DNA of 64,000 nucleotides from a virus (lineage: Duplodnaviria > Caudoviricetes): positions 1 through 64,000 of IMG/VR virus record IMGVR_UViG_2930666980_000001; one strand, given 5' to 3'. Position 1 is the first letter of the stretch. Each line of letters begins with the position of its first letter. The notes below the pieces were generated by a model. It had not been told where the DNA came from. It saw only the letters and a program-made list of their open reading frames with translations, and made no database searches. Position numbers and translations under genes: made by a program. This document shows positions 2,027 to 64,000 of the stretch, in pieces.

Positions 2027-2506
2027 TCACCCGGTCCGTCGGTGCTGGTGTTCGGGCGTTACCCCTTTGGGGGCGTGAGCGGGCGTCATGTACCCGAGAC
2101 GCCGGATGACTTCCTCCTGCGCCTCTGGTGAGAGCGCCGCCATGATGGCGGTCACTGCTTCAAGGGGCGGCGCGTATCCGCCTGCCGGCATGGGTGCGGA
2201 AGGCTGCTCCGCCTGCTGGAGCTCCTCGAGCTCACGTGCTGCGTCCTCGCGCTGCGCCTCGCGGAGCTCTGTCGGCGTGACGCCGACCACCTGCGCCATG
2301 CGGGCGAGCGTGTCGGCCGGGGCGCGTACTGGGGCGGGGGACCCGCTCACTGACTGGTAGCCACTGACGATCTGCCTCCAGCGGGCATCGCTGAGGTCTG
2401 CCTGACGGGCTGCTTTGCGGGCGGACAGGCCGGATTTCTTGAGTGCTGAGGCGATCATCACGGCCTCCGGTGGGGGGCCAGGGCGCGACGACGAGTTCAT
2501 GCGCAC
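2027..2506 (-). CDS. XRE-family HTH protein, probable immunity repressor
   Basis: GLSARKAARQADLSDARWRQIVSG...TLARMAQVVGV; divergent from a Cro-like gene. Confidence 0.8.
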   Translation of the reverse strand: MRMNSSSRPGPPPEAVMIASALKKSGLSARKAARQADLSDARWRQIVSGYQSVSGSPAPVRAPADTLARMAQVVGVTPTELREAQREDAARELEELQQAEQPSAPMPAGGYAPPLEAVTAIMAALSPEAQEEVIRRLGYMTPAHAPKGVTPEHQHRRTG

Positions 2507-2673
2507 AGGTTCGCATGACTACGCGCTACTGCGCTACAGCACCTAGGCGCATGGCGCATTTGAAGCGTTTGAGTGCGTAGTTCTGCGCCCTATGTACGCC
2601 CCTGTCCCGCTCTGCTGCGCACTGGCGCGCTAGTTCCTTGCACTACGCACTACTACGCGCTAGCGTTTCAATC
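2507..2673. promoter_or_regulatory. Lysis/lysogeny switch region with repeated ACTACGC-like operators and a rightward promoter
   Basis: actacgc at ~2518, ~2642, ~2652 and inverted gcgtagt at ~2575; TTGCAC-17 bp-TAGCGT ends 7 nt before ATG 2674 (leaderless). Confidence 0.7.
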
Positions 2674-3027
2674 ATGAACGTCCCGCAAAGGCGGCGCCCT
2701 CGTGGCGCCCCGTTTCACCATGCGCCGGAGGCCGTCACGTACGCCCGGGAACAAGCGGGCTTCACGAAGACGCATCTGGCCGCGACCTGCGGATTCAGCC
2801 TTCAACTGCTCTGCGACATCGAGGCCGGGCGGCGCAATGCCACCCCCGAGAAGTTGGAGCTGCTCGCCACGGCGCTCAAGTGCCCCGTGGTCGTCCTGGA
2901 GGCGAAGCGCGTACTTCCGGCCGATCGTGCCGGCACTCGCGTCGAGCAGGGCTCTGCGGTCACTGCCTCCGCGCCTTCACCCGGGGCCTCTGAGCCTGCC
3001 CCCGGGGAGATACGCGCCGCCTCCTGA
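2674..3027 (+). CDS. Cro-like XRE HTH regulator
   Basis: AREQAGFTKTHLAATCGFSLQLLCDIEAGRRNAT..LATALKC. Confidence 0.85.
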   Translation: MNVPQRRRPRGAPFHHAPEAVTYAREQAGFTKTHLAATCGFSLQLLCDIEAGRRNATPEKLELLATALKCPVVVLEAKRVLPADRAGTRVEQGSAVTASAPSPGASEPAPGEIRAAS

Positions 3028-3118
3028 CGGCGCCGGGGCTGCCCGGACCCTGCTCCGGTCCTTGGACAGCCCCGCTCACCAGGCAACACCTCAACCACAG
3101 CGAATCGAGGTCATTACC

Positions 3119-3457
3119 TTGGCAAGCAACTGTAGTGCTCAGCTCGGCGCGGCGCGTGCGCTCGTCGACCTGATGCGTGATCACCAGCAGCTCGGTGTAC
3201 TGGAGTGGACTCTCACCCCGGTCGGCGTGCTGCTCGGGCAGCAGACGGCGGTGGAGGGGCGCGGCGAGATCATCGCCGAGTGCGCCCGTGTCCTCGGCGG
3301 TACGCCCGTGAGCGTGAGGGCCGACGTTGACGGCTCCGGCTTCGCGGAGCTCGTGACCGTGTGGCGCGGCGTGAACGTCAAGGTCTGGGTCACGTACTCC
3401 GTCCCGGCCCCGCCCCGTGCGCTGGGCACCGTCGTCCCTGCGGGCGGTGGGCGCTGA
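3119..3457 (+). CDS. Hypothetical phage protein
   Basis: TTG start after gagg; stop coupled to the next gene. Confidence 0.55.
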   Translation: MASNCSAQLGAARALVDLMRDHQQLGVLEWTLTPVGVLLGQQTAVEGRGEIIAECARVLGGTPVSVRADVDGSGFAELVTVWRGVNVKVWVTYSVPAPPRALGTVVPAGGGR

Positions 3458-3898: not shown

Positions 3899-4669
3899 GT
3901 GACCCGTCGGTCTGACTGGGCGTCGCACGACCACGCCGCTGTCGCGGAGAACGCCCGTGCTGAGCGCGGGACTTGGCTGATGGCTGGTGTCTACGGGACG
4001 AAGGGGTCGGCGGCGTCTGCGGCCAAGAAGGCCCCGATGGCCCAGGACATGCCGGCATACGCACCGGCCGGGTCATTCGAGGCGTACGCCGTCATGCACC
4101 CCGACGGCTGGGCCCTGTGGGTTCGGTACGTCGCCGGAGACGAGCCGGTCCCGGAGCTCCCGGAGCGCATGACCGTCCGGGTCTGCGACTGGCTGAGCGA
4201 CGAGGAGGCCGACGGCGTCGGCGTCGTGACCGTCACAGTGGCGGCCCGCTGCTCGACGTGCGGCGGTCCCCGCGGGCACGACACCCTCGCCGCGCAGGAG
4301 TTCACCGACGGCGGTGTCGAGTTCACCGTCGACCGGTGGACGAACCCGTGCGGTCACCTCGACACGTACGACGCGATCCTCCATGAGGCCCGGTTCCGGC
4401 CTCTCCCGGAGCCGTCGAGCGGTCCGGCTGGCCTGGTGCTTGAGGACGTGCCGGAGCCCCCAGCGCCGGACAGCCCGGCCGGGGTCGTCCTGGCCGCTGC
4501 CGACGCCTGGCGCGGGATGCGGGCAAAGGCAGCCATCGAGGTTCTCGACAAGCACGGCTTTGCCGAGGACGCCGACCGGGTCGCCCTCATGCTCCGCAAG
4601 GCCCGGACCCATGGGCACATCTCGGCCCGGCAGATCGCGCACTGGCTGCACGTGGGCGGTGACGCCTGA
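3899..4669 (+). CDS. Hypothetical phage protein with CxxC and CGH motifs
   Basis: GTGA overlap with upstream ORF; RCSTCGGPRG...WTNPCGH. Confidence 0.65.
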   Translation: MTRRSDWASHDHAAVAENARAERGTWLMAGVYGTKGSAASAAKKAPMAQDMPAYAPAGSFEAYAVMHPDGWALWVRYVAGDEPVPELPERMTVRVCDWLSDEEADGVGVVTVTVAARCSTCGGPRGHDTLAAQEFTDGGVEFTVDRWTNPCGHLDTYDAILHEARFRPLPEPSSGPAGLVLEDVPEPPAPDSPAGVVLAAADAWRGMRAKAAIEVLDKHGFAEDADRVALMLRKARTHGHISARQIAHWLHVGGDA

Positions 4670-6030: not shown

Positions 6031-7053
6031 ATGGCTGCCTCCAGCCTCATGGACCGGGTGAAGGTCGCGACGTCGGCCCCCGTCCCGGCCGCCCGCCGCT
6101 CCGCGCGTGCGGACGGCTCCCAGCACGACCAGGCGGCCGACACCGCTCCCGCTGCCGGCACGGAGTCGGCTGACGCAGCGCTCGTCTGGCTGCGCCGGTA
6201 CGAGTCGCATTTCGTCGACGCCCTTCCGGCCTGCGTGGACAGCGGCCAGTTCTTCGCCGCCGTGCGGGCCCTGCTCCCGGACCTGATCCGGCGGGAGTGC
6301 TCCCCGGCGAGCATGTTGCAGAGCCTGCTTACCTGCGCCCGGTTCGGGCTGATCCCGGACGGTCGGCACGCCGCTATCAGCGTGGAGTCCAGGCAGGCCG
6401 TATTCATCCCGATGTACCAGGGCTACATCGACCTGATGTACCGGTCCGGGCGGGTCGAGTCGGTACGGGTCGGGCTGGTCCACCAGGCCGACGACTGGAG
6501 TTACGAGCCGAGCGCGCCGTCCCCGGACGACTTCACGCACAGGGCGCGCGTCGAGCTGCCGAAGGCGGAGCGCGGGCCGGTCGTCCTGGCCTACGCGTTC
6601 TGCTGGCTCGCCGGGGGTGCCCGGTCGCAGGTGATCGTCCTGTCCCGGGAGGACGCCGAGGAGATCCGCGACGAGCACAGCACGGCGTACCAGCGGGCGG
6701 AGGAGTCGGGTAAGCGGGATTCGTTCTGGCACCTGCGCTTTGACCACATGTGGGCGAAGTCCGCGATCCGTCGCCTGGCGCCGCTCGTCCCGACGTCGGC
6801 GGAGCTCCGGGCGCTGGTCGCGGTCGAGGACGCGGGCGACGCGGGGAAGCCGCAGATCCTCCTCGCGCCGCTGACGGACGCTGAGACGGCCGCGCTGGTC
6901 GCTGACGCCGAGCAGGCCGCCGAGCACGCGGAAGGGTCGCAGGAGGCGGCGCTCCGGCCGCTGCCGGTCAAGGCTTCCGCTGCTCGCCGGGGCCGCTCGA
7001 AGCCCAAGAAGGACCGGGCGGCCGGCAGGGCCTCGAGGAGGCGCGCGGCATGA
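6031..7053 (+). CDS. recT: RecT-family single-strand annealing protein
   Basis: CSPASM..SL..CA.FGL.P, FIPMYQGYIDLMYRSG, FW...FDHMWAKSAIRRL...PTS motifs. Confidence 0.93.
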   Translation: MAASSLMDRVKVATSAPVPAARRSARADGSQHDQAADTAPAAGTESADAALVWLRRYESHFVDALPACVDSGQFFAAVRALLPDLIRRECSPASMLQSLLTCARFGLIPDGRHAAISVESRQAVFIPMYQGYIDLMYRSGRVESVRVGLVHQADDWSYEPSAPSPDDFTHRARVELPKAERGPVVLAYAFCWLAGGARSQVIVLSREDAEEIRDEHSTAYQRAEESGKRDSFWHLRFDHMWAKSAIRRLAPLVPTSAELRALVAVEDAGDAGKPQILLAPLTDAETAALVADAEQAAEHAEGSQEAALRPLPVKASAARRGRSKPKKDRAAGRASRRRAA

Positions 7054-7799: not shown

Positions 7800-8145
7800 C
7801 CGGCGCCCTCCTCGGCGTGTGCGCTGCCGGCATCAGCTGGGCGGTGGTCCGGCTGCTGGTCGACGCGGCGCGCTGCCTCCGCCAGGCGCGCCCGGCGGCC
7901 CCTGCTCCCCGTACGGCGGCCGTCCCTTCGGGGGCGGCCGTCGCCCCTCCTCCCGCGTCGGTCGTGGACGACGTCGCGGTCCAGGAGGGCCAGGAGGGCG
8001 CCCTCGCCGCGCGCATCGCGGCCGGTGAAGTCGACGCCCTCGACTACGCCATCTGTCCGGCTGAGAGCCGGACGACTCCTCACGCACTGCACGCCGACGG
8101 CTCCCGTCGCTGCTGGCAGTGCCACCACACCACGGCAGGTAGCTG

Positions 8146-8847
8146 ATGAGTGACGTGATCGAACCGTTTGAGCCGGAGTACGTCCGGCCCGCACAGGCGC
8201 CGTGTCCCAACTGTTTTTGCTGCTCCGGCGACTTGTGCGAGCGCGGCCGGGCGAGCGCGAAGCAGTGTCATGGGCTGACGTCCGACGAGTGCCGGGAGAC
8301 CGTGCACGGCTGCCCGTGCTCGGCCGCGACGACCCGGGGGACGTACGCCTACAAGGTGGCGCTGATCCGGGTGACGCGGCTGGCGACGGAGATGCCTCTC
8401 CTGCCGCCCGTCGAGAGTCTGCTCCGGACCCTCGTCGACGGTGAGGAGGTCGACGTCGAGGCGGAGGGCCTGGCGCTGCTCAAGGTCCGGGGCCTGGCGG
8501 ACGTCCTTGACGGCCGTGTCGTCCTGACGTCGCTCGGCCGCCGGTACCTGGTCGCCCGCGGTGAGCACCGGTACAGGACGCCGGTCGAGGTGCTGTCCGT
8601 GGACGTGAAGGCCCGGACCGTTGAGGCGGTCGTCGTGGGCTGGCACACGACGGAGCCGGTGACGCTGCTCCTCGACCAGGTCGCCGCGGAAAGCAAGGTG
8701 CCACCGGTCGAGCTGGTTGCCGGCATGTTCTTCGAGGCTGAGGCGAACTGCCGGACGGAGGACGTCGAGGAGCTCGTCCTCACCGACATCCGTGTCGCTC
8801 CGCCGCTCCCCAAGGGCTGGATGAACGGCGGCGGCCCCGATGCCTGA
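8146..8847 (+). CDS. Cys-rich hypothetical phage protein
   Basis: CPNCFCCSGDLC...C...CPC N-terminus; translationally coupled. Confidence 0.65.
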   Translation: MSDVIEPFEPEYVRPAQAPCPNCFCCSGDLCERGRASAKQCHGLTSDECRETVHGCPCSAATTRGTYAYKVALIRVTRLATEMPLLPPVESLLRTLVDGEEVDVEAEGLALLKVRGLADVLDGRVVLTSLGRRYLVARGEHRYRTPVEVLSVDVKARTVEAVVVGWHTTEPVTLLLDQVAAESKVPPVELVAGMFFEAEANCRTEDVEELVLTDIRVAPPLPKGWMNGGGPDA

Positions 8848-11214: not shown

Positions 11215-11657
11215 CGAGCCTCCAGCGGCATGGGGCCCTCGTCGAGGCGATCCTCGGCGCCGTCATCGAGGGCGACGCCATGCGCGCAGGCGCGGAGTTC
11301 GACGAGCTCGCCGGGGCCGGGGCGGCAGACCTGTACGGGCTGAGCGTCGCCGCGGCGACGGTCGGACGGGTCGCACTCCTCACCCGGTACGGCGGTCCGG
11401 CCGGGGCTCAGGCCGAGAGCCTGCGGGCCGTCAGCCGGGCGACGACCACCGGTGACGTGCATGACCAGTTCGCCGCCCGGTTCCTCGGCGCGGCCGTCCG
11501 CCGCGACGAGGACATGGCCATGGCCCTGTTCGCTGCGGCCGACGCTGCCGGCAGGCGGGCCCGGACCGAATCGGCGGCGGCGCTCCTCGCGCTCGTCGCT
11601 TCCCTTTACCGCGCCGACCCGGCGCCCCCCACCCAGCAGGGAGAGACCCGCTCATGA
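11211..11657 (+). CDS. Hypothetical Ala-rich protein
   Basis: GTGA/ATGA coupling at both ends. Confidence 0.55.
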   Translation: MTSLQRHGALVEAILGAVIEGDAMRAGAEFDELAGAGAADLYGLSVAAATVGRVALLTRYGGPAGAQAESLRAVSRATTTGDVHDQFAARFLGAAVRRDEDMAMALFAAADAAGRRARTESAAALLALVASLYRADPAPPTQQGETRS

Positions 11658-14671: not shown

Positions 14672-14894
14672 TGGCGGGTCACGAGCTCGAGCCGCCGCGC
14701 CTCGAGGAGATCCGCGACCTCCTCGCCGAGCTGGTCGCCCGACAGCACCGCCCGCCCACCGACGTCACCGAGCTGGCTGCCCTCCTCGGCCGCTGCCGGC
14801 ACGCCCTGACCGACGTCCTCAACGACCGCGATCACCTCGCCGCCATCTTCGCGGAGACGGCCGAGGAGCTCACCCTCTGGACTGGAACCCTCTG

Positions 14895-54495: not shown

Positions 54496-56118
54496 ATGCC
54501 GACCACCGAGGAGATTGAGCGCCAGGTCCTCGCGCTCGTCCGGGCGGGCGACGTCGCGACGCTCCGCCTGGTCCGGGACCGTCTCGCCTCGCGGCGTAGC
54601 AGCGCGTCCGCCCAGCGGGCCGTCAAGTACATGTACGACCCTGTCGGCTGGGTACGGGACGTCATCGACTGGCAGCCCGGGGAAGGGCTCGCCGCCTACC
54701 AGGAGGACGTCCTCAGCCTGCTCGCCAGGGAGCGCCGTGTCGCGGCCCGCGGACCGCACGGTCTGGGGAAGACCGGCATGGCCGCGCTCGGCGTCCTCTG
54801 GTTCGCGACGACCCGCGACGCTGCCGGCATCGACTGGAAGGTCCTGACGACCGCCTCCGCCTGGCGGCACCTCTCCGTCTACCTGTTCCCGGAGATCCAC
54901 AAGTGGGCGAGGCGCATCAAGTGGGAGATGCTCGGCCGCCCGCCGTTCCGGGAGAACGCCGAGCTCCTGGTCCACAACATCAAGCTCAGGTACGGGGCGG
55001 CGTCCGCGGTCGCCTCGACGAAGCCGGAGCTGATCGAGGGCGCGCACGCGGACAGCCTGCTCTACCTGATCGATGAGGCGAAGATCGTCCCCGATGGCAC
55101 CTGGGACGCCATTGAAGGGGCCTTCTCCGGCGGTAAGACGTCCGGGCTCCCGGAGGCCTTCGTCTTCGCTATCTCGACGCCTGGGCCCCCGTCAGGGCGC
55201 TTCTACGACATCCACAGCAGGAAGCCGGGGTTCGAGGACTGGTTCGTACGGCACGTCACCCTCGCTGAGGCGGTCGCTGCCGGCCGGATCTCCCCAGACT
55301 GGGCGGAGCAGCGCGCCCGCCAGTGGGGGCGAGACTCCGCGATCTACGCCAACCGTGTCCTCGGCGAGTTCCACGCGTCCGACGAGGACAGCGTCATCCC
55401 CCTGTCCTGGGTCGAGGCCGCCGTCGAGCGCTGGCACCTGTGGGACCAGGCCGGGCGGCCGGCACTCGAGGGGCGTCAGTTCCTCGGCGTCGACGTCGCA
55501 CGCGCCGGGGGAGACTCCACCGTCCTCGCGTACCGGACCGGCCTCGCGTACACCGAGCTCGAGACGCACGACCGCGAGGACACCATGGAGACGACCGCCC
55601 GCGTCCAGGCCGCCGTGGGCCGCCGCCCGGGCACCGTGCCGGTCGTCGACTCGATGGGCGTCGGCGGTGGCGTCGTCGACCGCCTCAGGGAGCTCGACGA
55701 GCCGGTCCTCGCCTACACCGGAGCAGCGAAGTCCCGCATGCGGTCGAGAGACGGAGAGTGGGGCTTCAACAACACCAGGAGCGCCGCCTACTGGCGCACC
55801 CGGGAGCTCCTCGACCCCGCTTTCGACCCGACGCTGATGCTCCCGCCGGATGACCTCCTGCTCGCCGACCTGACCGCCCCGACATGGGCGGTCAAGACCG
55901 GCCGCCCCCCGACGATCCAGATCGAGCCGAAGGACGACCTGATCAAGCGGCTCGGCCGCTCCCCCGACCGTGGGGACGCCGTCGTGATGGGCCTGTACGC
56001 CGAGCTGCTCGCCTCGACGACCGTGCAGAACCCGGCCAGGGCCGGCACGGGCAGCACGGCCGCAGCCAGCAAGTACGGGCGAACCATCGGCGGCACGTCG
56101 GCGGCACGAGGCCGGTGA
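54496..56118 (+). CDS. terL: Terminase large subunit
   Basis: Walker A GPHGLGKT, Walker B LIDEA, ISTP, LGVDVAR..GDST, SPDRGDA. Confidence 0.95.
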   Translation: MPTTEEIERQVLALVRAGDVATLRLVRDRLASRRSSASAQRAVKYMYDPVGWVRDVIDWQPGEGLAAYQEDVLSLLARERRVAARGPHGLGKTGMAALGVLWFATTRDAAGIDWKVLTTASAWRHLSVYLFPEIHKWARRIKWEMLGRPPFRENAELLVHNIKLRYGAASAVASTKPELIEGAHADSLLYLIDEAKIVPDGTWDAIEGAFSGGKTSGLPEAFVFAISTPGPPSGRFYDIHSRKPGFEDWFVRHVTLAEAVAAGRISPDWAEQRARQWGRDSAIYANRVLGEFHASDEDSVIPLSWVEAAVERWHLWDQAGRPALEGRQFLGVDVARAGGDSTVLAYRTGLAYTELETHDREDTMETTARVQAAVGRRPGTVPVVDSMGVGGGVVDRLRELDEPVLAYTGAAKSRMRSRDGEWGFNNTRSAAYWRTRELLDPAFDPTLMLPPDDLLLADLTAPTWAVKTGRPPTIQIEPKDDLIKRLGRSPDRGDAVVMGLYAELLASTTVQNPARAGTGSTAAASKYGRTIGGTSAARGR

Positions 56119-56650: not shown

Positions 56651-57189
56651 CGCGCAGCTACCGGGGCGAGCCCTCGCCTCTCGTACGGCAGTGGTCGAGC
56701 ACGGGGCGAGGAACGAACATCGTTCCCTCGGCGACGATCTCGCCGCCGTCCGTGGTCCGGTAGACCTCCGTGTTGAGCCCGTCCCCCGTCTCGACCTGGA
56801 CGGCGCGGGCCGGGTGAGGCCGCGTGTCGGGGCGGAGGGCTGCGAGCAGTACGTCATGGTCCACGTGCCGACTGTAGGCCAACGAGTAGCGGGCCCCCAG
56901 GGGACGCGAATCCTGGGGGCCCGCGGGGCCCGGCCGCACTCCGGGCCGGAGGTGCCGGCAGCTGCAGGGTGTGTGCGCCTGCGCCGCCCGGGCACTGCAT
57001 CGGCATAGCTGCCCGGCACCTCGCGGCGAGGAGAGTACACGCCCCGGCATCCTGGGAATGATCAGAATTGCGGGGCCTCGACCCCCACCCTTGATCAGAT
57101 TCACGGCAGTTGACCTTGGGATCGACGGAACGCGGTTGCCTTATAGTGCTCCGCCGACCACCCACGAAGATCGTCACCAAGGGGCGAAC

Positions 57190-59667: not shown

Positions 59668-62600
59668 ATGGCGGTAGCTGACGAGCTCGAGGACCAGCTG
59701 CAGCGCGCAGAGGTCGATGTCGCCAAGGAGGTCGCGGCCGTCCTCGCGGAGGTCGCCCTCGAGTTCGCGGCCGAGCTCGAGGCCGCCGACGAGATCGTGG
59801 CCGCTCGGTTCTCCGTGTCCCGGATCGCCCGCATGTGGACGTCCCGCATGCCCCGGGTGGTGCGCCGCCTGCTGCGCGTCGCCGAGACGGCCGCGGAGAA
59901 CACCGCCGACACCGTCGAGCTCCCCCTCCCCGACGGGTGGGACGACCTCCCCGGCCGGTACGACGACGACCGGGAACTCCCCCTGGGCATCGGCCAGTAC
60001 GTCGAGACGACCGAACACCTCCTGCGCGCGGTGGGGGACCGGGTCTCTGACGCTGCGGTGCGGGAGCTCGCTGCCGGCATGGACGAGGGCGAGACCATCG
60101 ACCAGCTCCGCGCCCGCCTCCGGGCCGCCTTCCGGCGGGAAGGGGCGCAGCTCGGTACCGCCCGTGAGGACCGCATCGCGATCACGGAGGCCGGGCGCGC
60201 CTGGAACACGGCGACGCTCGCCGCCGCCCAGGCCCTCACCGGCCCGGACCGGCCGCTCGTCAAGCAGTGGCTCACCCGCCGTGACACCCGTGTCCGGGAC
60301 GCCCATGCCGACGTGAACGGGCAGCTCCGCCTCCTCGACGAGCCGTTCACCGTTGCCGGGGTCGAGATGGCGGCCCCCCTCGACCCGACCGCGCCGCCCG
60401 CCCTGGTCGTCAACTGCCGCTGTGTGCTGGCCGTCGCGACCGCAGACCGCACCGCCGCCTACGAATCTCAGACGCCCGCCCGAGACGCGGCTAAGAATCG
60501 ACGGAAGGATCCCGGTGTGCCCGACCTTGTGACGGCTGCGGCCGACGCCGACCACCACACGGGCGCCATGATCGCGCTCGTCCCCACCCAGGAGGACGCC
60601 GAACGCCTTGCGATCGACGGCGGCGAGGCGGCCGACGAGCTCCACCTGACCCTGTACTTCCTCGGCGAGGGCGCCGACTGGTCGACCGACCAGCGCAACG
60701 AGCTGATCGACCTCGTCCGGTCCCGCGCGGAGGACCTCGAGCCCATCACCGCCCGGGCGTTCGGGGCGAACCACTGGAACGCCGGCAGCGACTCGCCCAG
60801 CTGGGTGTGGGCCGTCGGCGACGACCGCGACCGCCCCCAGGACTCCCCGACGCTCGAGACCGCCCACTACGCGGCGACGTACGCCCTCGAGGACCGGCAC
60901 GGCCCGGACATCCCCGTACAGCACTCCCCATGGTCGCCCCACGTCTGCGCGGTCTACAGCGGCGAGACGTGGCCGCTCGAGCTCCTCCTCGAGCAGCTCG
61001 GCCCGATCACCTTCGACCGGATCCGCCTCGCCTTCGAGGGCGAGGTCACGGACATCCCCCTCGGCACCACGGAGGAATCCATGGACACCACCGACGACGA
61101 GAGGACGGCGGCCGGCATGCAGACACGAGCCTGGTCCACCCCTGATGAAACCGCCCTGGCCTTCGAGGACCAGGAGACCGGCGACGGCCGCGTGTTCGCC
61201 CCCGGTGCCCTGTTCTGGGAGGGCGGGCCCTGGCCGCTCCAGTACGCCGACGAGATGCTGATGGGCCACCAGGGCGCGGAGCTCGCCGGGGCCATCGAGA
61301 CCATCGACCGGCAGGGCGGCCGGATCGCCGGGAGCGGCGTCATCTACGCCGACCGCGCCGCCGGAGCCGACGCCATCCAGTTCCTCGACGAGAAGGCCCC
61401 CCTGGGCGTCTCCGTCGACCTCGACGACGTCGATATCGAGTTCGTCGACAAGACCATGTCGCCCGAGGACGCCGAGATGTACGGGCTGGTCGCCTCGCTG
61501 TCCTCGCTGAGCGTGCTGCGCCTCGAGGACGGGGCGCTCATGCTCACCGCGAGCAGCGCCCCGGTATGGACGGCCTCCGGGACGGCGATGGCCCGCAACC
61601 AGCACTCCGTGCAGTTCATCACCGGCCCCGGAGGCCGGATCAGCCGCGAGGCCCTGCGCACAGCGTTCGCCGGCACGACGTTCCTCACCGCCGCGGCCGG
61701 TGACCGCGACGACCCGGACAGCGGCGTCGTCGTCCACTCGGAGAGCGCGGGCGACCTCCTCGTCCGGATCACCCGGGCCCGGATGCGCGGCGCGACCCTC
61801 GTCGCCATGCCCGCCTACTCCAATGCCCGGATCGTCCTGGACCCGGTCGACGACGAGGGCCAGGAGGAGACGGCCGCCGCAGGGGTCCAGACGGCCGCAG
61901 GAGTCTCTGACACGCACCGCCGGGTCGTCGCGTACGTCCGGGCCTCCCCGATCGCCGTGGGGGCCCGTGAGGTCGGTAAGGCCCTCGGCCTGCGCACCGA
62001 CACCGTCCGCGGCCACCTGTCCCGCGCCGTCGCTGCCGGCACCCTCGTCCGCCTGGCACCCGGCCAGTTCGTGGGGGCGTCGACGATGCCGGAGGGCGCA
62101 CCGCTCGAGACCCTCGCCGAAGACGACACCGGTGAGCTCACGGAGCTCGAGGCCTCCGCCTGGACCGCGATGCGCGACACCGACCCGATGCCGGCAGGCT
62201 GGTTCCAGGAGCCGACCGACGAGGAACTCCCCCCAGGGAGCGGCGGCGTGCACTACAGCGGCGGCCGGATCTTCGGCTGGGTCGCCCAGGCAGGGGAGCC
62301 GCACGCCGGTTACCCGGGCAGGCAGCTGACGATCGAGTCGCTCGGCGACATCGACACCTCCCACTTCCTGCGCGCCCGCTTCCAGCTCGACGACGGCAGC
62401 ATGGTCAAGGCCGGTGCCTTCACCATGAACGCCCCTCACCACAGGGACGGCGCGGAGTGTGAGAGCGCGGCGTGCCAGTTCGATGACACGAGGACCGTGG
62501 CCGGCATCGTCACCGTCGGCATGAACGCCCGGGGCATGTGGTTCTCCGGCGCGGCGTCCCCGTGGCTCTCGGAGTGGGACCGCCGGGTGTTCTCCGCCTG

Positions 62601-63024
62601 CCAGCCCAGCTACCACATGAAGCAGGGCGCCGGGTCCCGCTGGCAGCTCCGCGCCGTCCTGTCCGTACCCGTGCCCGGACACTCGTCCCCGCTCCTCGCG
62701 ACGGCGGTCGCCGAGCGCTCCAACCTCGCACTGGCCGCGTCCGCGTCCGCCGTCCTGACCAGCCCGGACACCATGCCCGGATACCAGGCGGACACGTCCG
62801 GGCAGCCGGTGCCCGGACAGTCCGCGGACACGTCCGGACTCCTCGCCGCGCTCACCGCCGACCCGGCCACCCTGGACGCCCTCCTGACGCTCCTGCAGCA
62901 GCGGGAGAGCGACCAGCAGGCCGCCCGTAAGGCGGAGGTCGAGCAGCTCAGCGCAGCCGTCGCAGCCGCCGCCACCGTCCCCCCGCCGCTCGTCGCGGCA
63001 GCCCCTCAGAACGGAGACCAGTGA
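59668..63024 (+). CDS. MuF-like minor head protein fused to a 2H phosphoesterase and a probable capsid-maturation region
   Basis: MuF KQWLTRRDTRVRDAH...VNCRC; 2H motifs HLTL and HVCA; ETGDGRVF; internal winged HTH. Confidence 0.85.
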   Translation: MAVADELEDQLQRAEVDVAKEVAAVLAEVALEFAAELEAADEIVAARFSVSRIARMWTSRMPRVVRRLLRVAETAAENTADTVELPLPDGWDDLPGRYDDDRELPLGIGQYVETTEHLLRAVGDRVSDAAVRELAAGMDEGETIDQLRARLRAAFRREGAQLGTAREDRIAITEAGRAWNTATLAAAQALTGPDRPLVKQWLTRRDTRVRDAHADVNGQLRLLDEPFTVAGVEMAAPLDPTAPPALVVNCRCVLAVATADRTAAYESQTPARDAAKNRRKDPGVPDLVTAAADADHHTGAMIALVPTQEDAERLAIDGGEAADELHLTLYFLGEGADWSTDQRNELIDLVRSRAEDLEPITARAFGANHWNAGSDSPSWVWAVGDDRDRPQDSPTLETAHYAATYALEDRHGPDIPVQHSPWSPHVCAVYSGETWPLELLLEQLGPITFDRIRLAFEGEVTDIPLGTTEESMDTTDDERTAAGMQTRAWSTPDETALAFEDQETGDGRVFAPGALFWEGGPWPLQYADEMLMGHQGAELAGAIETIDRQGGRIAGSGVIYADRAAGADAIQFLDEKAPLGVSVDLDDVDIEFVDKTMSPEDAEMYGLVASLSSLSVLRLEDGALMLTASSAPVWTASGTAMARNQHSVQFITGPGGRISREALRTAFAGTTFLTAAAGDRDDPDSGVVVHSESAGDLLVRITRARMRGATLVAMPAYSNARIVLDPVDDEGQEETAAAGVQTAAGVSDTHRRVVAYVRASPIAVGAREVGKALGLRTDTVRGHLSRAVAAGTLVRLAPGQFVGASTMPEGAPLETLAEDDTGELTELEASAWTAMRDTDPMPAGWFQEPTDEELPPGSGGVHYSGGRIFGWVAQAGEPHAGYPGRQLTIESLGDIDTSHFLRARFQLDDGSMVKAGAFTMNAPHHRDGAECESAACQFDDTRTVAGIVTVGMNARGMWFSGAASPWLSEWDRRVFSACQPSYHMKQGAGSRWQLRAVLSVPVPGHSSPLLATAVAERSNLALAASASAVLTSPDTMPGYQADTSGQPVPGQSADTSGLLAALTADPATLDALLTLLQQRESDQQAARKAEVEQLSAAVAAAATVPPPLVAAAPQNGDQ

Positions 63025-63197
63025 TGCCCTGCTCCTGCCAGTCCAAGCGCCAGCAGTACGAGGTGGTGACCGCGGCCGGGAAGGTCGTGTTCACCTCCGC
63101 CAACAAGGCGACCGCCGACACCGTCGCCAAGCGCTACGAGAACAGCGAGGTCCGGGAGAAGGCCAAGACTGGAGCAGCGGCCAAGGCCGCCACCTGA
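63024..63197 (+). CDS. Small head-module protein
   Basis: TGATG coupling; 57-aa ORF beginning MPCSC. Confidence 0.7.
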   Translation: MPCSCQSKRQQYEVVTAAGKVVFTSANKATADTVAKRYENSEVREKAKTGAAAKAAT

Positions 63198-63334
63198 CCC
63201 CCCGGTAACGACACCGCACCGCCGCGGCGCCGACTAGCTATGCTGGTCGGCGTCGCTGCTGGTGTGCTAGGCCGGGCGACGTCGCCGCTGGTGCTAGGCC
63301 GGGCTCCAAGTTCTTTTCCGCTGGAGCGCCCACC

Positions 63335-64000
63335 ATGGCCGACTTCGAACTCCCCGAGAACATCGCCGCCCTGAACGACGACGAGCTCACCGAGCTCCTC
63401 GACGGCGCGACCAAAGAGTTCAACAGCAAGAGCACCAGCAGCGTCGTCACCCCCAAGGACATCGAGCAGCTCCGCGCGCTCGCCAAGGGCGTCGAGGACA
63501 TCCGCACCGAGCAGGCCGCCCGTGTCGAGGCCGCCACCCAGGCCGCTGCCGAGATCGACGCCCTCGCCGCCCAGGTCCGTGGCAACACCGCCGACGACCC
63601 GGCGGCCGAGCCGACCGGCGAAGAGACCACCGCCGCGGCGGAGACCGCCCCGGCCGCCGAGCCTGCCGAGCCCGCTCCCGTTCAGGAGCCGGAGCAGCAG
63701 GCGACCGCCTCCGCGATGGTCGCGACCCGCCCGGCCCTGAACCTCTCCGGTATCCGGCGCCGTCAGCCGAACGTCCTCCCGGCGGCCCCGGCCCCGGGCA
63801 CGACGATCACGGCGGCCGTCGACGTCCCCGGCTACGCCCCCGGCTCTCCGCTCGACTTCGGCGACATCACTGCCGGCATCATCAGCCGCGCCAACGCCCT
63901 CAAGACCGCGGGGGGCGGGGTCGGCCAGGTGATCAGCTACCGGCACCCGTACCCGGAAGACATGATCGTCACCGACTCCTCGTCGGCCCCGGAGGGGACC
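63335..64000 (+). CDS. Major capsid protein with scaffold-like N-terminus (runs off the window end)
   Basis: RBS ggag; helical N-terminus, ITAAVDVPGY; position after the MuF fusion. Confidence 0.8.
   Translation, partial: MADFELPENIAALNDDELTELLDGATKEFNSKSTSSVVTPKDIEQLRALAKGVEDIRTEQAARVEAATQAAAEIDALAAQVRGNTADDPAAEPTGEETTAAAETAPAAEPAEPAPVQEPEQQATASAMVATRPALNLSGIRRRQPNVLPAAPAPGTTITAAVDVPGYAPGSPLDFGDITAGIISRANALKTAGGGVGQVISYRHPYPEDMIVTDSSSAPEGT

What the first reader, a model, noticed from the sequence alone, without database searches (positions are those of the whole stretch)
2183..63878. Highly iterated palindrome TGCCGGCA across the whole prophage
By eye at least 48 exact copies, about one per 1.3 kb, e.g. 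2183, 2928, 4050, 6153, 7825, 8718, 11546, 14794, 15457, 15817, 16065, 16286, 17975, 19647, 22399, 22886, 24559, 25716, 25734, 28609, 29341, 30187, 30816, 30830, 31001, 34252, 34875, 36720, 37188, 39786, 40250, 41085, 43729, 44646, 46102, 47296, 47485, 47895, 48525, 49464, 49634, 54417, 54822, 56953, 60072, 62034, 62189, 63871. A base-composition estimate at ~72% GC gives only about 3. Most copies lie in genes, in more than one frame, and need codons that are rare here (GCT-GCC-GGC-A, NTG-CCG-GCA), which points to selection on the DNA. Phages usually avoid palindromes. It may be a loading site for the three ParB-like proteins, the target or mark of the modification cluster, a dispersed repressor site, or a HIP1-like element.
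Basis: partly seen in the sequence, partly recalled or inferred. Interest (0 to 1): 0.82.

Follow-up and report, generated by a model that had tools for sequence, protein, structure and literature searches.

The report
Iterated T-flanked GCCGGC palindrome in prophage
A Streptomyces-type prophage has removed the restriction-type word GCCGGC everywhere unless a T precedes it on at least one strand, and has multiplied the doubly T-flanked palindrome TGCCGGCA more than ten-fold, a virus-borne counterpart of the unexplained 'highly iterated palindromes' of cyanobacteria.

Summary
TGCCGGCA occurs 49 times in the window and 74 times in the 101.7-kb provirus. A codon-aware null expects about 5 copies in genes, and 64 are seen. 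The purge and the multiplication are separate processes. Outgroups show old unflanked cores broken by synonymous changes, and octamers created where no core stood. None of 401 Streptomyces or 301 wider-class chromosomes shares the density or the flank rule. A 94%-identical relative does, and so does a distant relative (G696), at different positions. Adjacent T does not rescue NotI sites, so the effect is specific to T+GCCGGC. The signature associates with a DegT/Ino1/PP-loop/ParB3 cassette, but one cassette-bearing phage has no purge. Best reading (about 0.4): GCCGGC-directed host restriction combined with a phage-borne, T-dependent, sequence-specific protection. Why the octamer multiplies remains inferred. 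Unchecked notes of this scan report the same word in other phages. I found no paper on it.

The parts
2183..2190 (.). TGCCGGCA copy, outside my gene calls
2928..2935 (.). TGCCGGCA copy, outside my gene calls
4050..4057 (.). TGCCGGCA copy, ATG-CCG-GCA (MPA)
6153..6160 (.). TGCCGGCA copy, GCT-GCC-GGC-ACG
7825..7832 (.). TGCCGGCA copy, outside my gene calls
8718..8725 (.). TGCCGGCA copy, GTT-GCC-GGC-ATG
11546..11553 (.). TGCCGGCA copy, GCT-GCC-GGC-AGG (rare Arg codon supplies the 3' A)
13875..13882 (.). GCT-GCC-GGC-AGA, where TurkishDelight has GCC-GCC-GGC-CGG for the same peptide AAGR
14794..14801 (.). TGCCGGCA copy, TGC-CGG-CAC
15457..15464 (.). TGCCGGCA copy, outside my gene calls
15817..15824 (.). 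TGCCGGCA copy, GCT-GCC-GGC-AGC
16065..16072 (.). TGCCGGCA copy, GCT-GCC-GGC-ACC
16286..16293 (.). TGCCGGCA copy, outside my gene calls
17975..17982 (.). TGCCGGCA copy, CTG-CCG-GCA
19647..19654 (.). TGCCGGCA copy in a minus-strand gene, GGT-GCC-GGC-ATC
22399..22406 (.). TGCCGGCA copy, GGT-GCC-GGC-ATC
22886..22893 (.). TGCCGGCA copy, ATG-CCG-GCA
24559..24566 (.). TGCCGGCA copy, GCT-GCC-GGC-ATC
25716..25723 (.). TGCCGGCA copy, GTG-CCG-GCA; first of a pair 18 bp apart
25734..25741 (.). TGCCGGCA copy, GTG-CCG-GCA; second of the pair
28609..28616 (.). TGCCGGCA copy, CTG-CCG-GCA
29341..29348 (.). TGCCGGCA copy, ATG-CCG-GCA
30187..30194 (.). TGCCGGCA copy, ATG-CCG-GCA
30816..30823 (.). TGCCGGCA copy outside gene calls; first of a pair 14 bp apart that could pair as an 8-bp stem
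30830..30837 (.). TGCCGGCA copy outside gene calls; second of the pair
31001..31008 (.). TGCCGGCA copy, GCT-GCC-GGC-ATC
34252..34259 (.). TGCCGGCA copy, CAT-GCC-GGC-ATC
34875..34882 (.). TGCCGGCA copy, GTG-CCG-GCA
36720..36727 (.). TGCCGGCA copy, CCT-GCC-GGC-AGC
37188..37195 (.). TGCCGGCA copy, CAT-GCC-GGC-AGC
39786..39793 (.). TGCCGGCA copy, GCT-GCC-GGC-ACG
40250..40257 (.). TGCCGGCA copy, ATG-CCG-GCA; the only one of 22 alignable copies that is also TGCCGGCA in G696
41085..41092 (.). TGCCGGCA copy, TGC-CGG-CAG
43729..43736 (.). TGCCGGCA copy, outside my gene calls
44646..44653 (.). TGCCGGCA copy, GCT-GCC-GGC-ATC (in ParB-like 1)
46102..46109 (.). TGCCGGCA copy, GTG-CCG-GCA (in ParB-like 2)
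47296..47303 (.). TGCCGGCA copy, CCT-GCC-GGC-ACC (in DegT)
47485..47492 (.). TGCCGGCA copy, GCT-GCC-GGC-ACC (in DegT)
47895..47902 (.). TGCCGGCA copy, GGT-GCC-GGC-ATC (in Ino1-like); G695 has GGC-GCC-GGC-AGC here
48525..48532 (.). TGCCGGCA copy, AGT-GCC-GGC-ATC (in Ino1-like); G695 has AGC-GCC-GGC-ATC, the same peptide
49464..49471 (.). TGCCGGCA copy, CTG-CCG-GCA; G695 and G696 have CTG-CCC-GCG (LPA kept), so the octamer was made by synonymous changes
49634..49641 (.). TGCCGGCA copy, GCT-GCC-GGC-AGC
54417..54424 (.). TGCCGGCA copy, GAT-GCC-GGC-AGC
54822..54829 (.). TGCCGGCA copy in the large terminase, GCT-GCC-GGC-ATC; relatives encode AAGI as GCC-GCG-GGG-ATC, GCC-GCC-GGG-ATC or GCC-GCG-GGC-ATC
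56953..56960 (.). TGCCGGCA copy, outside my gene calls
60072..60079 (.). TGCCGGCA copy, GCT-GCC-GGC-ATG; Met here where five relatives have Val or Leu, an amino-acid change that supplies the 3' A
62034..62041 (.). TGCCGGCA copy, GCT-GCC-GGC-ACC
62189..62196 (.). TGCCGGCA copy, ATG-CCG-GCA; MPA is kept in all relatives, three of which use ATG-CCC-GCC or ATG-CCC-GCG (no core)
63871..63878 (.). TGCCGGCA copy in the capsid gene, ACT-GCC-GGC-ATC; TurkishDelight has ACC-GCC-GGC-ATC (same peptide)
510..517 (.). AGCCGGCT, the only GCCGGC core of 168 on the contig with neither a 5' T nor a 3' A; it lies near the left prophage end
43834..44667 (+). ParB-like protein 1, shared with signature-negative relatives
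   Evidence: phrog_723 E 2.5e-47; homologues in TurkishDelight, L004 and L005
44681..45457 (+). GP88-family protein
   Evidence: PF17338 E 3.6e-55
45537..46502 (+). ParB-like protein 2, shared with signature-negative relatives
   Evidence: phrog_723 E 3.3e-39
46499..47593 (+). DegT-type aminotransferase; first gene of the lineage-restricted cassette (candidate writer)
   Evidence: PF01041 E 2.4e-43; absent from TurkishDelight, L004 and L005
47590..48699 (+). inositol-1-phosphate-synthase-like protein (cassette)
   Evidence: PF01658 E 2.2e-31; phrog_33138
48701..49501 (+). PAPS-reductase-like (PP-loop) protein 1 (cassette)
   Evidence: phrog_424 E 5.2e-9; no Pfam hit
49518..50912 (+). IbrA-like PAPS_reduct + DUF3440 protein (cassette)
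   Evidence: PF01507, PF11922; phrog_2302 E 2.5e-79
50937..52325 (+). second IbrA-like PAPS_reduct + DUF3440 protein (cassette)
   Evidence: phrog_2302 E 1.3e-76
52322..52867 (+). ParB_N (IbrB-like) protein 3; candidate DNA-reading part of the cassette
   Evidence: PF02195 E 4e-7; phrog_2159 E 1.9e-57; weak match to Spo0J/Noc N-terminal domain

Best explanation
SHOWN: the provirus genome follows a two-part rule at the hexamer GCCGGC. (1) Cores with no 5' T on either strand have been removed, mostly by synonymous changes. (2) The doubly T-flanked form, TGCCGGCA, has been created anew in many genes and spacers until it occurs about once per 1.4 kb. INFERRED MECHANISM: the lineage lives under GCCGGC-directed restriction. 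From memory, GCCGGC is the NaeI/NgoMIV-type site. Whole-hexamer depletion in some Streptomyces chromosomes shows that such pressure exists in the genus. A phage-borne, sequence-specific factor reads 5'-T-GCCGGC on each strand and modifies or occludes that half-site. One T therefore gives protection on one strand (the tolerated half-sites), two T's give full protection (the octamer), and no T gives none (purged). The best candidate is the lineage-restricted DegT / Ino1-like / three PP-loop / ParB3 cassette at 46,499-52,867. It sits in a slot that holds other DNA-modification cassettes in relatives. The multiplication of the octamer is the least explained step. I take it to reflect either a benefit of mark density (a self-mark, or poisoning of a restriction enzyme that needs two sites) or a modification-linked repair ratchet of the kind Elhai proposed for HIP1.
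For: Purge: unflanked cores in genes number 0 against 146.3 expected (smallest of 100 shuffles 121). CGCCGGCG, GGCCGGCC, CGCCGGCC and GGCCGGCG number 0 each against 37, 18.5, 29.6 and 25.1. On the whole contig 1 of 168 cores is unflanked. The route is synonymous: where outgroups have an unflanked core and the same peptide, the query has a broken core in 25 of 26 comparisons and TGCCGGCA in 1. Over all 99 aligned comparisons the split is 95 broken, 3 T..A, 1 half-site and 0 unflanked. Each flank is pushed on its own. In NNx-GCC-GGC-A, x is T in 40 of 72 cases (baseline 4.5%). In xTG-CCG-GCy, y is A in 20 of 35 (baseline 6%). Positive creation: Ala-Gly before an A-starting codon is GCC-GGC in 72 of 109 cases, against 18 of 62 and 18 of 50 in controls. 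Of 18 alignable octamers, 12 have no core in any outgroup. Outside genes there are 10 copies against 1.03 expected. The effect is specific to T+GCCGGC: 99% of GCCGGC cores are T-flanked, against 8-36% for the other seven GC-only hexamer palindromes. T-flanked NotI sites number 0 against 5.6 expected, and 0 of 200 shuffles give 0. The rule needs the full hexamer. It is a phage feature and not a host one. 401 Streptomyces genomes have 8-261 TGCCGGCA and 948-24,328 VGCCGGCB, and the GCCGGC-poor ones lose the T-flanked form equally (G015: 8 and 948). 301 genomes of the class reach at most 0.087 per kb. It is heritable and convergent. L099 (94.4% identical over 13.8 kb) has 13 T..A, 14 half-sites and 0 unflanked. 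G696 (58% mean protein identity) has 18, 13 and 0, with 1 of 22 positions shared. Cassette link: the slot between the ParB pair and the terminase holds methyltransferases in TurkishDelight and a radical-SAM plus GTP cyclohydrolase I set in L004 and L005. T-flank events per core, observed over null, are 4.2, 5.2, 1.9 and 1.5 in the four full-cassette lineages and 0.3-1.45 in seven others (exact rank test, one-sided p = 0.003). G695 has an excess of T-flanked cores without any purge (58 vs 35.6, 0 of 200 shuffles reach it). The close relative also carries the cassette (L148).
Against: No modification has been observed; it is inferred. The cassette is not sufficient: G695, whose cassette is the closest to the query's (69-85% identity), keeps 96 unflanked cores and has only 4 TGCCGGCA. 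G697 has 0 TGCCGGCA. L138, with a distant cassette, shows no T preference (0.78). With the gene-call-free metric, G695 (1.59) and G697 (1.84) overlap the cassette-less L004 (1.70, on 32 cores). The rank tests do not control for kinship or shared hosts, and n is 4-5 against 7-12. Viral contigs with excess TGCCGGCA but no detectable cassette exist (L096, L103, L080, all fragments). The IbrA-like protein gave 0 of 5 matches in other records, without a positive control. A restriction enzyme that is itself blocked by a 5' T or 3' A would explain the purge without any phage factor, and PspXI (VCTCGAGB) is such an enzyme. No thymidylate-synthase-type gene or canonical DNA methyltransferase is present. 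Conservation of the copies against the 94% relative is only suggestive (12 of 13 against 72% background, p = 0.09). The benefit that drives multiplication is not identified.
Confidence: 0.4

Rival explanations
1. A flank-sensitive host restriction enzyme plus a separate role for the octamer. The host enzyme recognises VGCCGGCB, that is GCCGGC unless a T precedes it or an A follows it, as PspXI does with VCTCGAGB. Any single T then makes a site safe, with no phage factor needed. TGCCGGCA is multiplied for another reason, for instance as an uncleavable decoy for an enzyme that needs two sites. From memory, the CCGG/GCCGGC-family enzymes NaeI, NgoMIV, Cfr10I and SgrAI act that way.
For: The pattern is exactly 'not T ... 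not A'. A-flanked cores are purged like C- and G-flanked ones (AGCCGGCC 0 vs 11.8, CGCCGGCT 0 vs 10.9), and half-sites stay near the null (83 vs 62). PspXI's site is printed as 5'VCTCGAGB (one table passage read in PMC12378416). Multiplication goes with the purge and not with the cassette: the query and G696 have both, while G695 has the cassette but no purge and only 4 octamers. TGCCGGCA excess also occurs in unrelated viral contigs with no detectable cassette (L096 13 vs 0.87, L103 7 vs 0.36, L080 5 vs 0.25). T does not rescue NotI sites.
Against: If one T were enough, nothing would push the second flank, yet T is chosen in 40 of 72 cases where the 3' A is already fixed. In G696 the half-sites are themselves depleted (11 vs 44.8). 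Streptomyces chromosomes that deplete GCCGGC deplete the T-flanked form equally, so the enzymes acting there are not flank-sensitive. It would be a coincidence for an independently selected word to share the restricted core. I know of no described VGCCGGCB enzyme (recall only; REBASE was not searchable here). G695 shows a T-flank excess without any purge.
Confidence: 0.25
2. A HIP-type by-product without function. A post-replicative mark on GCCGGC (host methylation or the phage's own modification) biases mismatch repair, so that mutations creating marked T-G-C... sites are fixed preferentially. This is the ratchet Elhai proposed for HIP1 and its alternates. The octamer would be an epiphenomenon.
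For: The formal likeness to HIP1 is close. It is a palindromic octamer at about 0.7 per kb. One-letter deviants are concentrated at the first and last positions (15-34 copies, against 0-6 for inner positions). Copies lie in all frames and in spacers. Elhai 2015 (PMC4390886; abstract and passages read) reports the same edge bias and densities near one per kb. He also reports an alternate HIP built on rCCGGy in Oscillatoria PCC 10802, whose top octamer CACCGGCA (reverse complement TGCCGGTG) shares the TGCCGG half. Independent accumulation at different positions in the query and in G696, and a T-flank excess without purge in G695, both fit a ratchet.
Against: No C5 or N4/N6 methyltransferase is found in the provirus, with working controls. 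No chromosome among 401 + 301 sampled shows the enrichment, although a prophage replicates with its host. A ratchet does not explain the total loss of unflanked cores, because independent flanks would leave about 15% of them (38% of convertible flanks are unconverted). From memory, actinobacteria lack the MutS/MutL system on which the model rests.
Confidence: 0.15
3. Loading or binding sites for the phage's ParB-like proteins (partition, condensation or nucleoid-occlusion-like coating), or dispersed operator sites for an HTH repressor.
For: Three ParB-like genes lie at 43,834-52,867, and ParB3 weakly resembles the Spo0J/Noc N-terminal domain. The word is a palindrome suited to a dimer, and copies number 74.
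Against: ParB1 and ParB2 homologues (52-67% identity) occur in TurkishDelight, L004 and L005, which have 1 TGCCGGCA each in the DNA examined. 64 of 74 copies lie inside genes and spacing is indistinguishable from random (CV 0.83, KS p = 0.57). From memory, parS and Noc sites are 14-16 bp and few or clustered. Binding alone does not explain the purge of unflanked cores.
Confidence: 0.07
4. A general thymine hypermodification shield. All thymines carry a bulky group, so any GC-only restriction site is safe only next to a T. This is the reading given in earlier unchecked notes of this scan for other phages.
For: It explains why a T, and not an A, is needed on the 5' side. The avoided words GCCGGC and GCGGCCGC contain no T. 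An Ino1-like gene and an aminotransferase are present, and an unchecked note links Ino1 to thymidine-hypermodification operons.
Against: T-flanking is confined to GCCGGC (99%, against 8-36% for seven other GC-only palindromes). T-flanked NotI sites are absent (0 vs 5.6 expected; 0 of 200 shuffles give 0). CTCGGG, which contains a T, is avoided (2 vs 45.2). No thymidylate-synthase-family gene is found, with a control ringing in 10 of 14 genomes. The element is a temperate provirus (integrase) that replicates as host DNA.
Confidence: 0.04
5. Chance, codon usage, a repeated peptide or mobile mini-element, host composition, or a base-calling artefact at modified sites.
For: An order-6 Markov model reproduces the count (86.1), but only because the 7-mers already carry the signal.
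Against: Codon-aware nulls give 5.2 and 2.0 against 64. Copies lie in 44 of 112 genes, in three frames and in spacers. There is no conserved sequence beyond the 8 bases. Host-type chromosomes lack the pattern. The flank bases that determine amino acids are genuine residues, for example MPA is kept in four homologues. Cores are broken by synonymous changes, which an artefact would not produce. An independent record shares 12 of 13 sites.
Confidence: 0.01

Closest known systems
HIP1 (GCGATCGC), the highly iterated palindrome of cyanobacteria (Elhai 2015, PMC4390886: abstract and passages read; Xu et al. 2018, PMC5861425: search listing only)
   Same: It is a palindromic octamer built as a hexamer restriction/methylation-type core plus one fixed base on each side. 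Density is about one per kb. Copies occur in all reading frames and in spacers. One-letter deviants are concentrated at the first and last positions (against the passage). The function is unresolved.
   Different: It sits in a provirus and not in a chromosome, and no sampled chromosome shares it. No cognate methyltransferase is found in the element. Spacing looks random. It is coupled to a complete purge of the same core when unflanked, which I did not see described for HIP1 in the passages read.
Alternate HIP rCCGGy of Oscillatoria PCC 10802, top octamer CACCGGCA / TGCCGGTG (Elhai 2015; tables and passages read)
   Same: It shares the CCGG-centred core, including GCCGGC, and the TGCCGG / CCGGCA half-word, with a T before the G of the core.
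   Different: There the word is not a palindrome, all of rCCGGy except ACCGGT is enriched, and an rCCGGy-specific m5C methyltransferase (DmtD) is present. Here only the full GCCGGC with T flanks is kept, and no methyltransferase is found.
Restriction-site (palindrome) avoidance in phage genomes
   Same: Unflanked GCCGGC, NotI (0 vs 24.2) and CTCGGG (2 vs 45.2) are depleted against a codon-aware null, by synonymous changes. The relative TurkishDelight avoids a different set (XhoI 4, SphI 0, PstI 4). Some Streptomyces chromosomes deplete GCCGGC up to about ten-fold.
   Different: Avoidance depends on one flanking base, and a subclass of the avoided core is enriched 12-fold instead of being merely tolerated.
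PspXI, VC^TCGAGB (site as printed in a table of PMC12378416)
   Same: It is a real enzyme whose hexamer core is not cut when a T precedes it or an A follows it. The purged class here, VGCCGGCB, has exactly that form.
   Different: The core is different. I know of no described enzyme with VGCCGGCB specificity (recall only). An enzyme of this kind would not by itself push the second flank to T or multiply the octamer.
Phage DNA-modification cassettes beside the packaging genes (7-deazaguanine-type sets; ParB-linked methyltransferases; IbrA/IbrB-like PP-loop plus ParB pairs)
   Same: The cassette occupies the same genomic slot, between a ParB pair and terS/terL. Relatives hold a radical-SAM plus GTP cyclohydrolase I set (L004, L005) or methyltransferases (TurkishDelight) there.
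   Different: The chemistry and the target of the DegT / Ino1-like / PP-loop / ParB3 cassette are unknown. A link between such a cassette and a genome-wide sequence word has not, to my knowledge, been reported (searches found nothing).

Membership tests
HIP1-type highly iterated palindrome | A palindromic octamer over-represented at least about 15-fold, at roughly one per kb | tested here: met
   74 copies in 101.7 kb (0.73 per kb). Enrichment is 26-fold over the dinucleotide shuffle, 12-fold over the synonymous shuffle, and about 40-fold over the density in Streptomyces chromosomes.
HIP1-type highly iterated palindrome | One-letter deviants concentrated at the first and last positions | tested here: met
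   Outer-position variants number 15-34 copies (0-1 when the base is A or T). All inner-position variants number 0-6. The criterion is taken from Elhai 2015.
HIP1-type highly iterated palindrome | A methyltransferase for the inner hexamer encoded in the same genome | tested here: not met
   PF00145 gives 0 matches (control 9 of 14 genomes) and PF01555 gives 0 (control 13 of 14) in the provirus. About 70 proteins scanned with Pfam show no methyltransferase. The host genome could not be examined.
HIP1-type highly iterated palindrome | A genome-wide property of a cellular lineage | tested here: not met
   0 of 401 Streptomyces genomes and 0 of 301 genomes of the class approach the density; the maxima are 261 copies per genome and 0.087 per kb. 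The property belongs to phage lineages (query, L099/L148, G696).
HIP1-type highly iterated palindrome | Copies conserved above background between relatives | tested here: inconclusive
   12 of 13 copies are identical in L099, against 72.5% of all 8-column windows (p = 0.09). All cores together give 22 of 24 (p = 0.02). Against G696, 1 of 22 positions is shared.
Restriction-site avoidance | Depletion against a codon-aware null, achieved by synonymous substitution | tested here: met
   Unflanked cores number 0 against 146.3 expected. 25 of 26 identical-peptide comparisons show a synonymously broken core. Ala-Gly before a non-A codon is GCC-GGC in 17 of 264 cases, against 93 of 258 in TurkishDelight.
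Restriction-site avoidance | A matching restriction enzyme in the host | not testable with these tools
Indirect support: GCCGGC is depleted up to about ten-fold in some Streptomyces chromosomes (G015 has 1,272 against 18,690 for the reversed word).
Restriction-site avoidance | All instances of the site are avoided, with no enriched subclass | tested here: not met
   T-flanked half-sites stay near the null (83 vs 62) and TGCCGGCA is 12-fold enriched.
ParB-parS type loading sites | A few clustered sites of about 16 bp near the partition genes, read by a cognate ParB | tested here: not met
   The word is 8 bp, with 74 dispersed copies, random spacing, and 64 copies inside genes. ParB1 and ParB2 homologues occur in relatives without the word. 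Binding itself was not testable.
Thymidine-hypermodified phage DNA (general shield) | A dUMP hydroxymethylase / thymidylate-synthase homologue or other thymine-modifying start enzyme | tested here: not met
   PF00303 gives 0 matches, with a control ringing in 10 of 14 genomes. The Tet_JBP search was uninformative because its control rang nowhere.
Thymidine-hypermodified phage DNA (general shield) | An adjacent T protects other avoided GC-only sites too | tested here: not met
   T-flanked NotI sites number 0 against 5.6 expected. The T-flanked fraction is 0.99 for GCCGGC and 0.08-0.36 for seven other palindromes.
Chi-like or uptake-type host recognition words | Over-represented in the host chromosome | tested here: not met
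   In Streptomyces chromosomes TGCCGGCA (8-261 per genome) is rarer than its reversed control word (253-1,219).

The most novel reading that the evidence does not exclude
TGCCGGCA is the recognition word of a phage-encoded, sequence-specific DNA hypermodification system. In this reading the DegT/Ino1-like enzymes make an aminocyclitol-type group, and the PP-loop/ParB3 proteins attach it at 5'-T-GCCGGC. The phage has written its own mark about 240 times (counting both strands) into its genome. The mark both shields the only GCCGGC cores the phage keeps and serves as a self-label whose density is under selection. This would be the first highly iterated palindrome in a virus with an identifiable candidate writer, arisen independently in at least two prophage lineages, and so a tractable model for how such palindromes arise.
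Probability: 0.27. Interest if true: 0.9.

Novelty: new variant of a known kind. Interest (0 to 1): 0.8.

Why it matters
Highly iterated palindromes have been known in cyanobacteria for three decades without an agreed cause. Here the same kind of pattern sits in a 100-kb inducible prophage of a culturable type of host. It shows an all-or-none flank rule, and relatives form a graded series: no purge, partial purge, full purge, and full purge that includes the half-sites. A candidate gene cassette can be deleted or moved. The question is therefore testable by ordinary digestion, nucleoside mass spectrometry, single-molecule sequencing and plating assays. If the T-dependent protection is real, it would define a new sequence-specific phage DNA modification and a function for the widespread, uncharacterised PP-loop/ParB (IbrA/IbrB-like) cassettes. 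If the cause is instead a flank-sensitive restriction enzyme, the data predict a new VGCCGGCB specificity and pose the question of why an uncleavable look-alike is multiplied. In practical terms, such k-mer rules can mark phage lineages and hint at the restriction systems of their hosts.

Tried and rejected
Codon usage and composition as the cause: rejected.

A repeated peptide or an element longer than 8 bp: rejected. Nothing is conserved beyond the octamer, and copies lie in 44 genes.

Sequencing artefact at modified bases: rejected.

Host chromosome with the same pattern: not found in 401 + 301 genomes. The true host could not be reached.

Regular spacing or clustering: none.

The rule applying to GCCGG half-cores or to RCCGGY in general: no, only to the full hexamer. 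SgrAI-type sites are reduced only through CGCCGGCG.

Close phage relatives in GenBank: none by DNA search.

The cupin-like gene at 52,929-53,654 as part of the cassette: dropped. Its one phage homologue lies in a head module of a 35%-GC phage with no GCCGGC.

The Ino1-like protein in GenBank phages hits only large Stenotrophomonas, Caulobacter and Ralstonia phages at about 40% identity, so it was not followed.

The viral contigs G404 and G405 looked enriched in short loci but are ordinary over their full length. G407 is marginal.

L096, L103 and L080: no shared gene with the query.

Solved-structure sequence searches: nothing for GP88 or the IbrA-like protein.

Literature: 'TGCCGGCA' occurs in 396 papers. 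The 25 listed were primers, cos ends and the like. With 'palindrom' there are 12 papers, none on an iterated palindrome. 'restriction site avoidance' plus 'Streptomyces phage' gives 0 papers. The IbrA/IbrB/ParB search returned mostly unrelated papers. Supplementary files were not consulted; Elhai's supplementary tables may hold flank data for rCCGGy.

Tools not used: the look-up of sequencing runs and read laying (I chose not to trace runs holding an unnamed record, and read-level support was not needed), structure prediction, fold search, complex prediction, the large protein searches, and the RNA tools.

Full report
WHAT IS THERE. The window is the first 64,000 bases of a single 101,757-bp virus record. 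IMG/VR classes the record as a provirus, and CheckV estimates it to be 100% complete. It carries RecE/RecT-type recombination genes, portal, MuF and capsid genes, an amidase endolysin and, cut by the right end, a tyrosine integrase. The nearest named relative is the temperate Streptomyces phage TurkishDelight, with 63% portal identity. Related prophages lie in two Streptomyces genomes. I therefore call the element a Streptomyces-type prophage. The host itself is not known.

THE OBSERVATION. Dinucleotide-preserving shuffles give 1.87 on average, and none of 100 reaches 49. The contig has 74 copies, spread evenly. I called 112 genes from third-position GC bias. Synonymous-codon shuffles within those genes give 5.17 +/- 1.82 copies against 64 observed, and a codon-order shuffle gives 2.02. 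Among all 65,536 octamers this one is the strongest outlier, z = 27. Forty copies stand as NNT-GCC-GGC-ANN, 20 as NTG-CCG-GCA, 4 as TGC-CGG-CAN, and 10 lie outside called genes. In the 16.7 kb outside genes the 10 copies compare with 1.03 expected, so the excess is not a codon effect. Spacing is indistinguishable from random.

THE PART THAT WAS MISSED. GCCGGC occurs 168 times on the contig. The flanks are T..A in 74 cases, G..A in 34, C..A in 20, T..C in 23, T..G in 15, T..T in 1 and A..T in 1, and nothing else. So 167 of 168 cores have a T before them on at least one strand. In genes the codon-aware null expects 146 cores without such a T, and none is present. The single exception lies at 510, near the prophage end. 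The rule holds only for the full hexamer. T precedes GCCGG-C 241 times on the two strands, against G 57, C 35 and A 3, while GCCGG followed by A, G or T shows little T preference. TurkishDelight has the same GC content and is ordinary: of its 181 cores, 1 is T..A and 155 are unflanked.

TWO PROCESSES. I used TurkishDelight and three prophage loci as outgroups (about 60% protein identity). I took every place where an outgroup has an unflanked core. The query has a broken core in 95 of 99 comparisons, TGCCGGCA in 3, a half-site in 1, and an unflanked core in none. Where the peptide is identical, 25 of 26 are broken by synonymous changes. Conversely, of 18 alignable octamers only 6 have a core in any outgroup. 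At 62189 the query has ATG-CCG-GCA where three relatives have ATG-CCC-GCC or ATG-CCC-GCG for the same MPA. At 13875 it has GCT-GCC-GGC-AGA where TurkishDelight has GCC-GCC-GGC-CGG for the same AAGR, using a very rare Arg codon. Some flanks are bought with amino-acid changes: Met for Val or Leu at 60072, and Leu for Ile at 66743.

The conditional tables agree. When the 3' A is fixed by the next codon, the free 5' base is T in 40 of 72 cases, against a 4.5% baseline. When the 5' T is fixed, the Ala codon is the rare GCA in 20 of 35 cases. GCC-GGC itself is used for 66% of Ala-Gly before an A-codon here, against 29% and 36% in controls, and for 6% before other codons, against 36% and 44%. Unflanked cores were therefore purged, and the octamer was multiplied separately. 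These comparisons also exclude a base-calling artefact.

NOT THE HOST'S COMPOSITION. In 401 Streptomyces genomes TGCCGGCA occurs 8 to 261 times per genome of 4.7-12.4 Mb, about one per 55 kb. In 301 genomes drawn across the class the densest has 0.087 per kb, against 0.73 per kb here. Unflanked cores number 948 to 24,328 per Streptomyces genome. Some species are strongly depleted in the whole hexamer. G015 has 1,272 copies against 18,690 of the reversed word. Pressure on GCCGGC therefore exists in the genus. In those genomes, however, the T-flanked form is lost in proportion (G015 has 8 and 948; the ratio is 1-2% everywhere). Sparing of T-flanked cores is thus a phage feature.

RELATIVES. It found L099, which is 94.4% identical to the query over 13.8 kb and carries the same rule: 13 T..A, 14 half-sites and 0 unflanked. 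Twelve of 13 octamers and 10 of 11 half-sites are identical in the two. Against an empirical background of 72.5% identical 8-column windows this is only suggestive (p = 0.09 and, for all cores together, 0.02). Three unrelated metagenomic contigs have TGCCGGCA as their top palindromic octamer: L096 with 13 against 0.87, L103 with 7 against 0.36, and L080 with 5 against 0.25. They were ascertained through one close pair each and keep some unflanked cores. G404 and G405 are ordinary and G407 is marginal.

WHAT READS THE T. A general shield by any adjacent thymine is not supported. The T-flanked fraction is 0.99 for GCCGGC and 0.08-0.36 for the other seven GC-only hexamer palindromes, as in TurkishDelight. 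NotI sites are wholly absent although 5.6 T-flanked ones are expected. No thymidylate-synthase-type gene and no C5 or N4/N6 methyltransferase is present, with working controls. The effect is specific to T plus GCCGGC.

Two readings remain. One is a host enzyme that is itself excluded by a 5' T or 3' A, as PspXI is at VCTCGAGB (site seen in a table of PMC12378416). The other is a phage factor that protects T-GCCGGC strand by strand.

THE CASSETTE. Between a pair of ParB-like genes and the terminase, the query has a run of cassette genes. They are a DegT aminotransferase, an inositol-phosphate-synthase-like gene, three PAPS-reductase-family (PP-loop) genes, two of them IbrA-like, and an IbrB-like ParB_N gene. 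TurkishDelight, L004 and L005 share the ParB pair (GP88 matched only L005) but not these genes. In the same slot TurkishDelight has two methyltransferases and an amidotransferase. L004 and L005 have a radical-SAM enzyme and GTP cyclohydrolase I, which from memory are hallmarks of 7-deazaguanine DNA modification. The slot thus holds exchangeable DNA-modification cassettes.

Searching IMG/VR with cassette proteins gave three further lineages with the full set, and many with only the IbrA/IbrB part. Whole-contig counts against each genome's own synonymous shuffle form a series:
- G695 (its cassette is the closest to the query's): T..A 4 vs 1.2, half-sites 50 vs 33, unflanked 86 vs 96.5.
- G697: 0 vs 0.7, 27 vs 36, 25 vs 97.
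- Query: 64 vs 5.0, 83 vs 62, 0 vs 146.
- G696: 14 vs 1.7, 11 vs 44.8, 0 vs 113.

The cassette is therefore not sufficient for the purge. Yet all four lineages prefer T-flanked cores. T-flank events per core, observed over null, are 1.5, 1.9, 4.2 and 5.2, against 0.3-1.45 in seven loci without the full cassette (exact one-sided rank test p = 0.003). G695 has an absolute excess of T-flanked cores with no purge (58 vs 35.6; 0 of 200 shuffles reach it). A metric free of gene calls is less clean: 5.6, 6.3, 1.8 and 1.6, and 0.8 for the distant L138, against 0.3-1.7 in twelve loci (p = 0.013). Kinship and shared hosts are not controlled. The 94% relative also carries the cassette (L148).

The query and G696 share 49 genes at 58% mean identity, but only 1 of 22 alignable octamer positions. 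The two lineages therefore accumulated the word independently.

READING. The purge is ordinary restriction avoidance in kind, with an unusual one-base exemption. The second flank is pushed to T even when one T is present. Half-sites are themselves depleted in G696. GCCGGC-poor chromosomes do not spare T-flanked cores. The preference follows the cassette. For these reasons I favour a phage-borne, T-dependent, strand-by-strand protection of GCCGGC over an enzyme with built-in flank exclusion (0.40 against 0.25).

Why the doubly flanked form is multiplied is not shown. It goes with the purge (query, G696) more than with the cassette alone (G695, G697). That suggests a benefit only under restriction, such as full against half protection, or interference with an enzyme that needs two sites. 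A HIP-type repair ratchet (Elhai 2015; passages read) remains possible, but it does not explain the total purge and lacks a methyltransferase here.

PRIOR KNOWLEDGE. I found no paper that treats TGCCGGCA as an iterated word. The closest in print are HIP1 and the rCCGGy alternate HIP of Oscillatoria PCC 10802, whose top octamer is CACCGGCA. Unchecked notes of this scan describe the same word and the same 'core only if T-flanked' rule in a lytic Streptomyces phage and two freshwater phages, and TGCCGGCA as an iterated palindrome in a Bacteroidota lineage. This is therefore not the first sighting in the scan. Those notes favour a general thymine shield, which my tests do not support for this phage.

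Enzyme specificities for NaeI, NgoMIV, MreI, FseI, NotI and SgrAI are recalled from memory and come from no call. The same holds for the behaviour of two-site and Type III enzymes, for the 7-deazaguanine pathway, and for the lack of MutS/MutL in actinobacteria.

Noticed in passing
whole window and contig: The NotI word GCGGCCGC is absent (0 against 24.2 expected in genes, and 0 on the contig), while TurkishDelight has 12 and G696 has 42. T-flanked NotI sites are absent too.
   Followed up: partly
window 3233; contig 91638; minus-strand copies at 360, 2093, 2845, 12974, 18659, 36355, 46326, 46719, 47950, 50526, 50967, 58287, 60479, 61462, 63353 and six more beyond the window: CTCGGG is strongly strand-biased and depleted: 2 copies on the + strand and 21 on the - strand, against 45 and 50 expected in genes, and 42 and 56 in TurkishDelight. 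From memory, one-orientation bias is how phages escape Type III enzymes that need inversely oriented sites.
   Followed up: partly
genes of the whole contig: GGGGGG is depleted (6 against 48.2 expected under the synonymous shuffle), as are several G-rich hexamers.
   Followed up: no
window 43834-56118; L001/L002 88490-93518; L004 950-5600; L005 780-5900: The slot between a conserved ParB pair and the terminase holds a different DNA-modification cassette in each relative. The query has DegT/Ino1-like/PP-loop/ParB3. TurkishDelight has methyltransferase-amidotransferase-methyltransferase. L004 and L005 have radical SAM plus GTP cyclohydrolase I.
   Followed up: partly
Streptomyces genomes G015, G327, G386, G381, G149, G208: A graded, flank-independent depletion of the whole GCCGGC hexamer exists among Streptomyces species. 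G015 has 1,272 copies in 8.5 Mb against 18,690 of the reversed word, while other species have up to 26,335.
   Followed up: partly
L001+L002 (TurkishDelight): TurkishDelight avoids a different set of sites: XhoI 4, SphI 0, PstI 4, PvuII 6, NruI 12 and SalI 36, against 115, 25, 23, 32, 50 and 157 in the query.
   Followed up: no
L165 (21 kb) and L166 (12 kb): Two roughly 60%-GC viral contigs with a distant Ino1-like gene have no GCCGGC at all. About 6 and 3 would be expected from the other GC-only palindromes.
   Followed up: no
L096 (8,630-bp IMG/VR contig): It has 13 dispersed TGCCGGCA and 11 TGCCGGCG but only 2 CGCCGGCA, so the bias is strand-specific. No phage family was recognised, and one protein has a PEP-CTERM motif, so it may not be viral.
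   Followed up: partly
window 30816-30837, 25716-25741; contig 93502-93530: Three close pairs of the octamer lie 14, 18 and 21 bp apart. The first pair lies between genes, after the 922-aa gene, and could form an 8-bp stem with a 6-base loop.
   Followed up: no
There it lies next to the portal gene, so it may belong to the head module.
   Followed up: partly
G696 (89.8-kb provirus, L152-L156): A second prophage lineage has a stricter form of the rule: 31 cores in 90 kb, of which 18 are TGCCGGCA, 13 are half-sites and none is unflanked. NotI (42) and CTCGGG (30 and 68) are not avoided there.
   Followed up: yes
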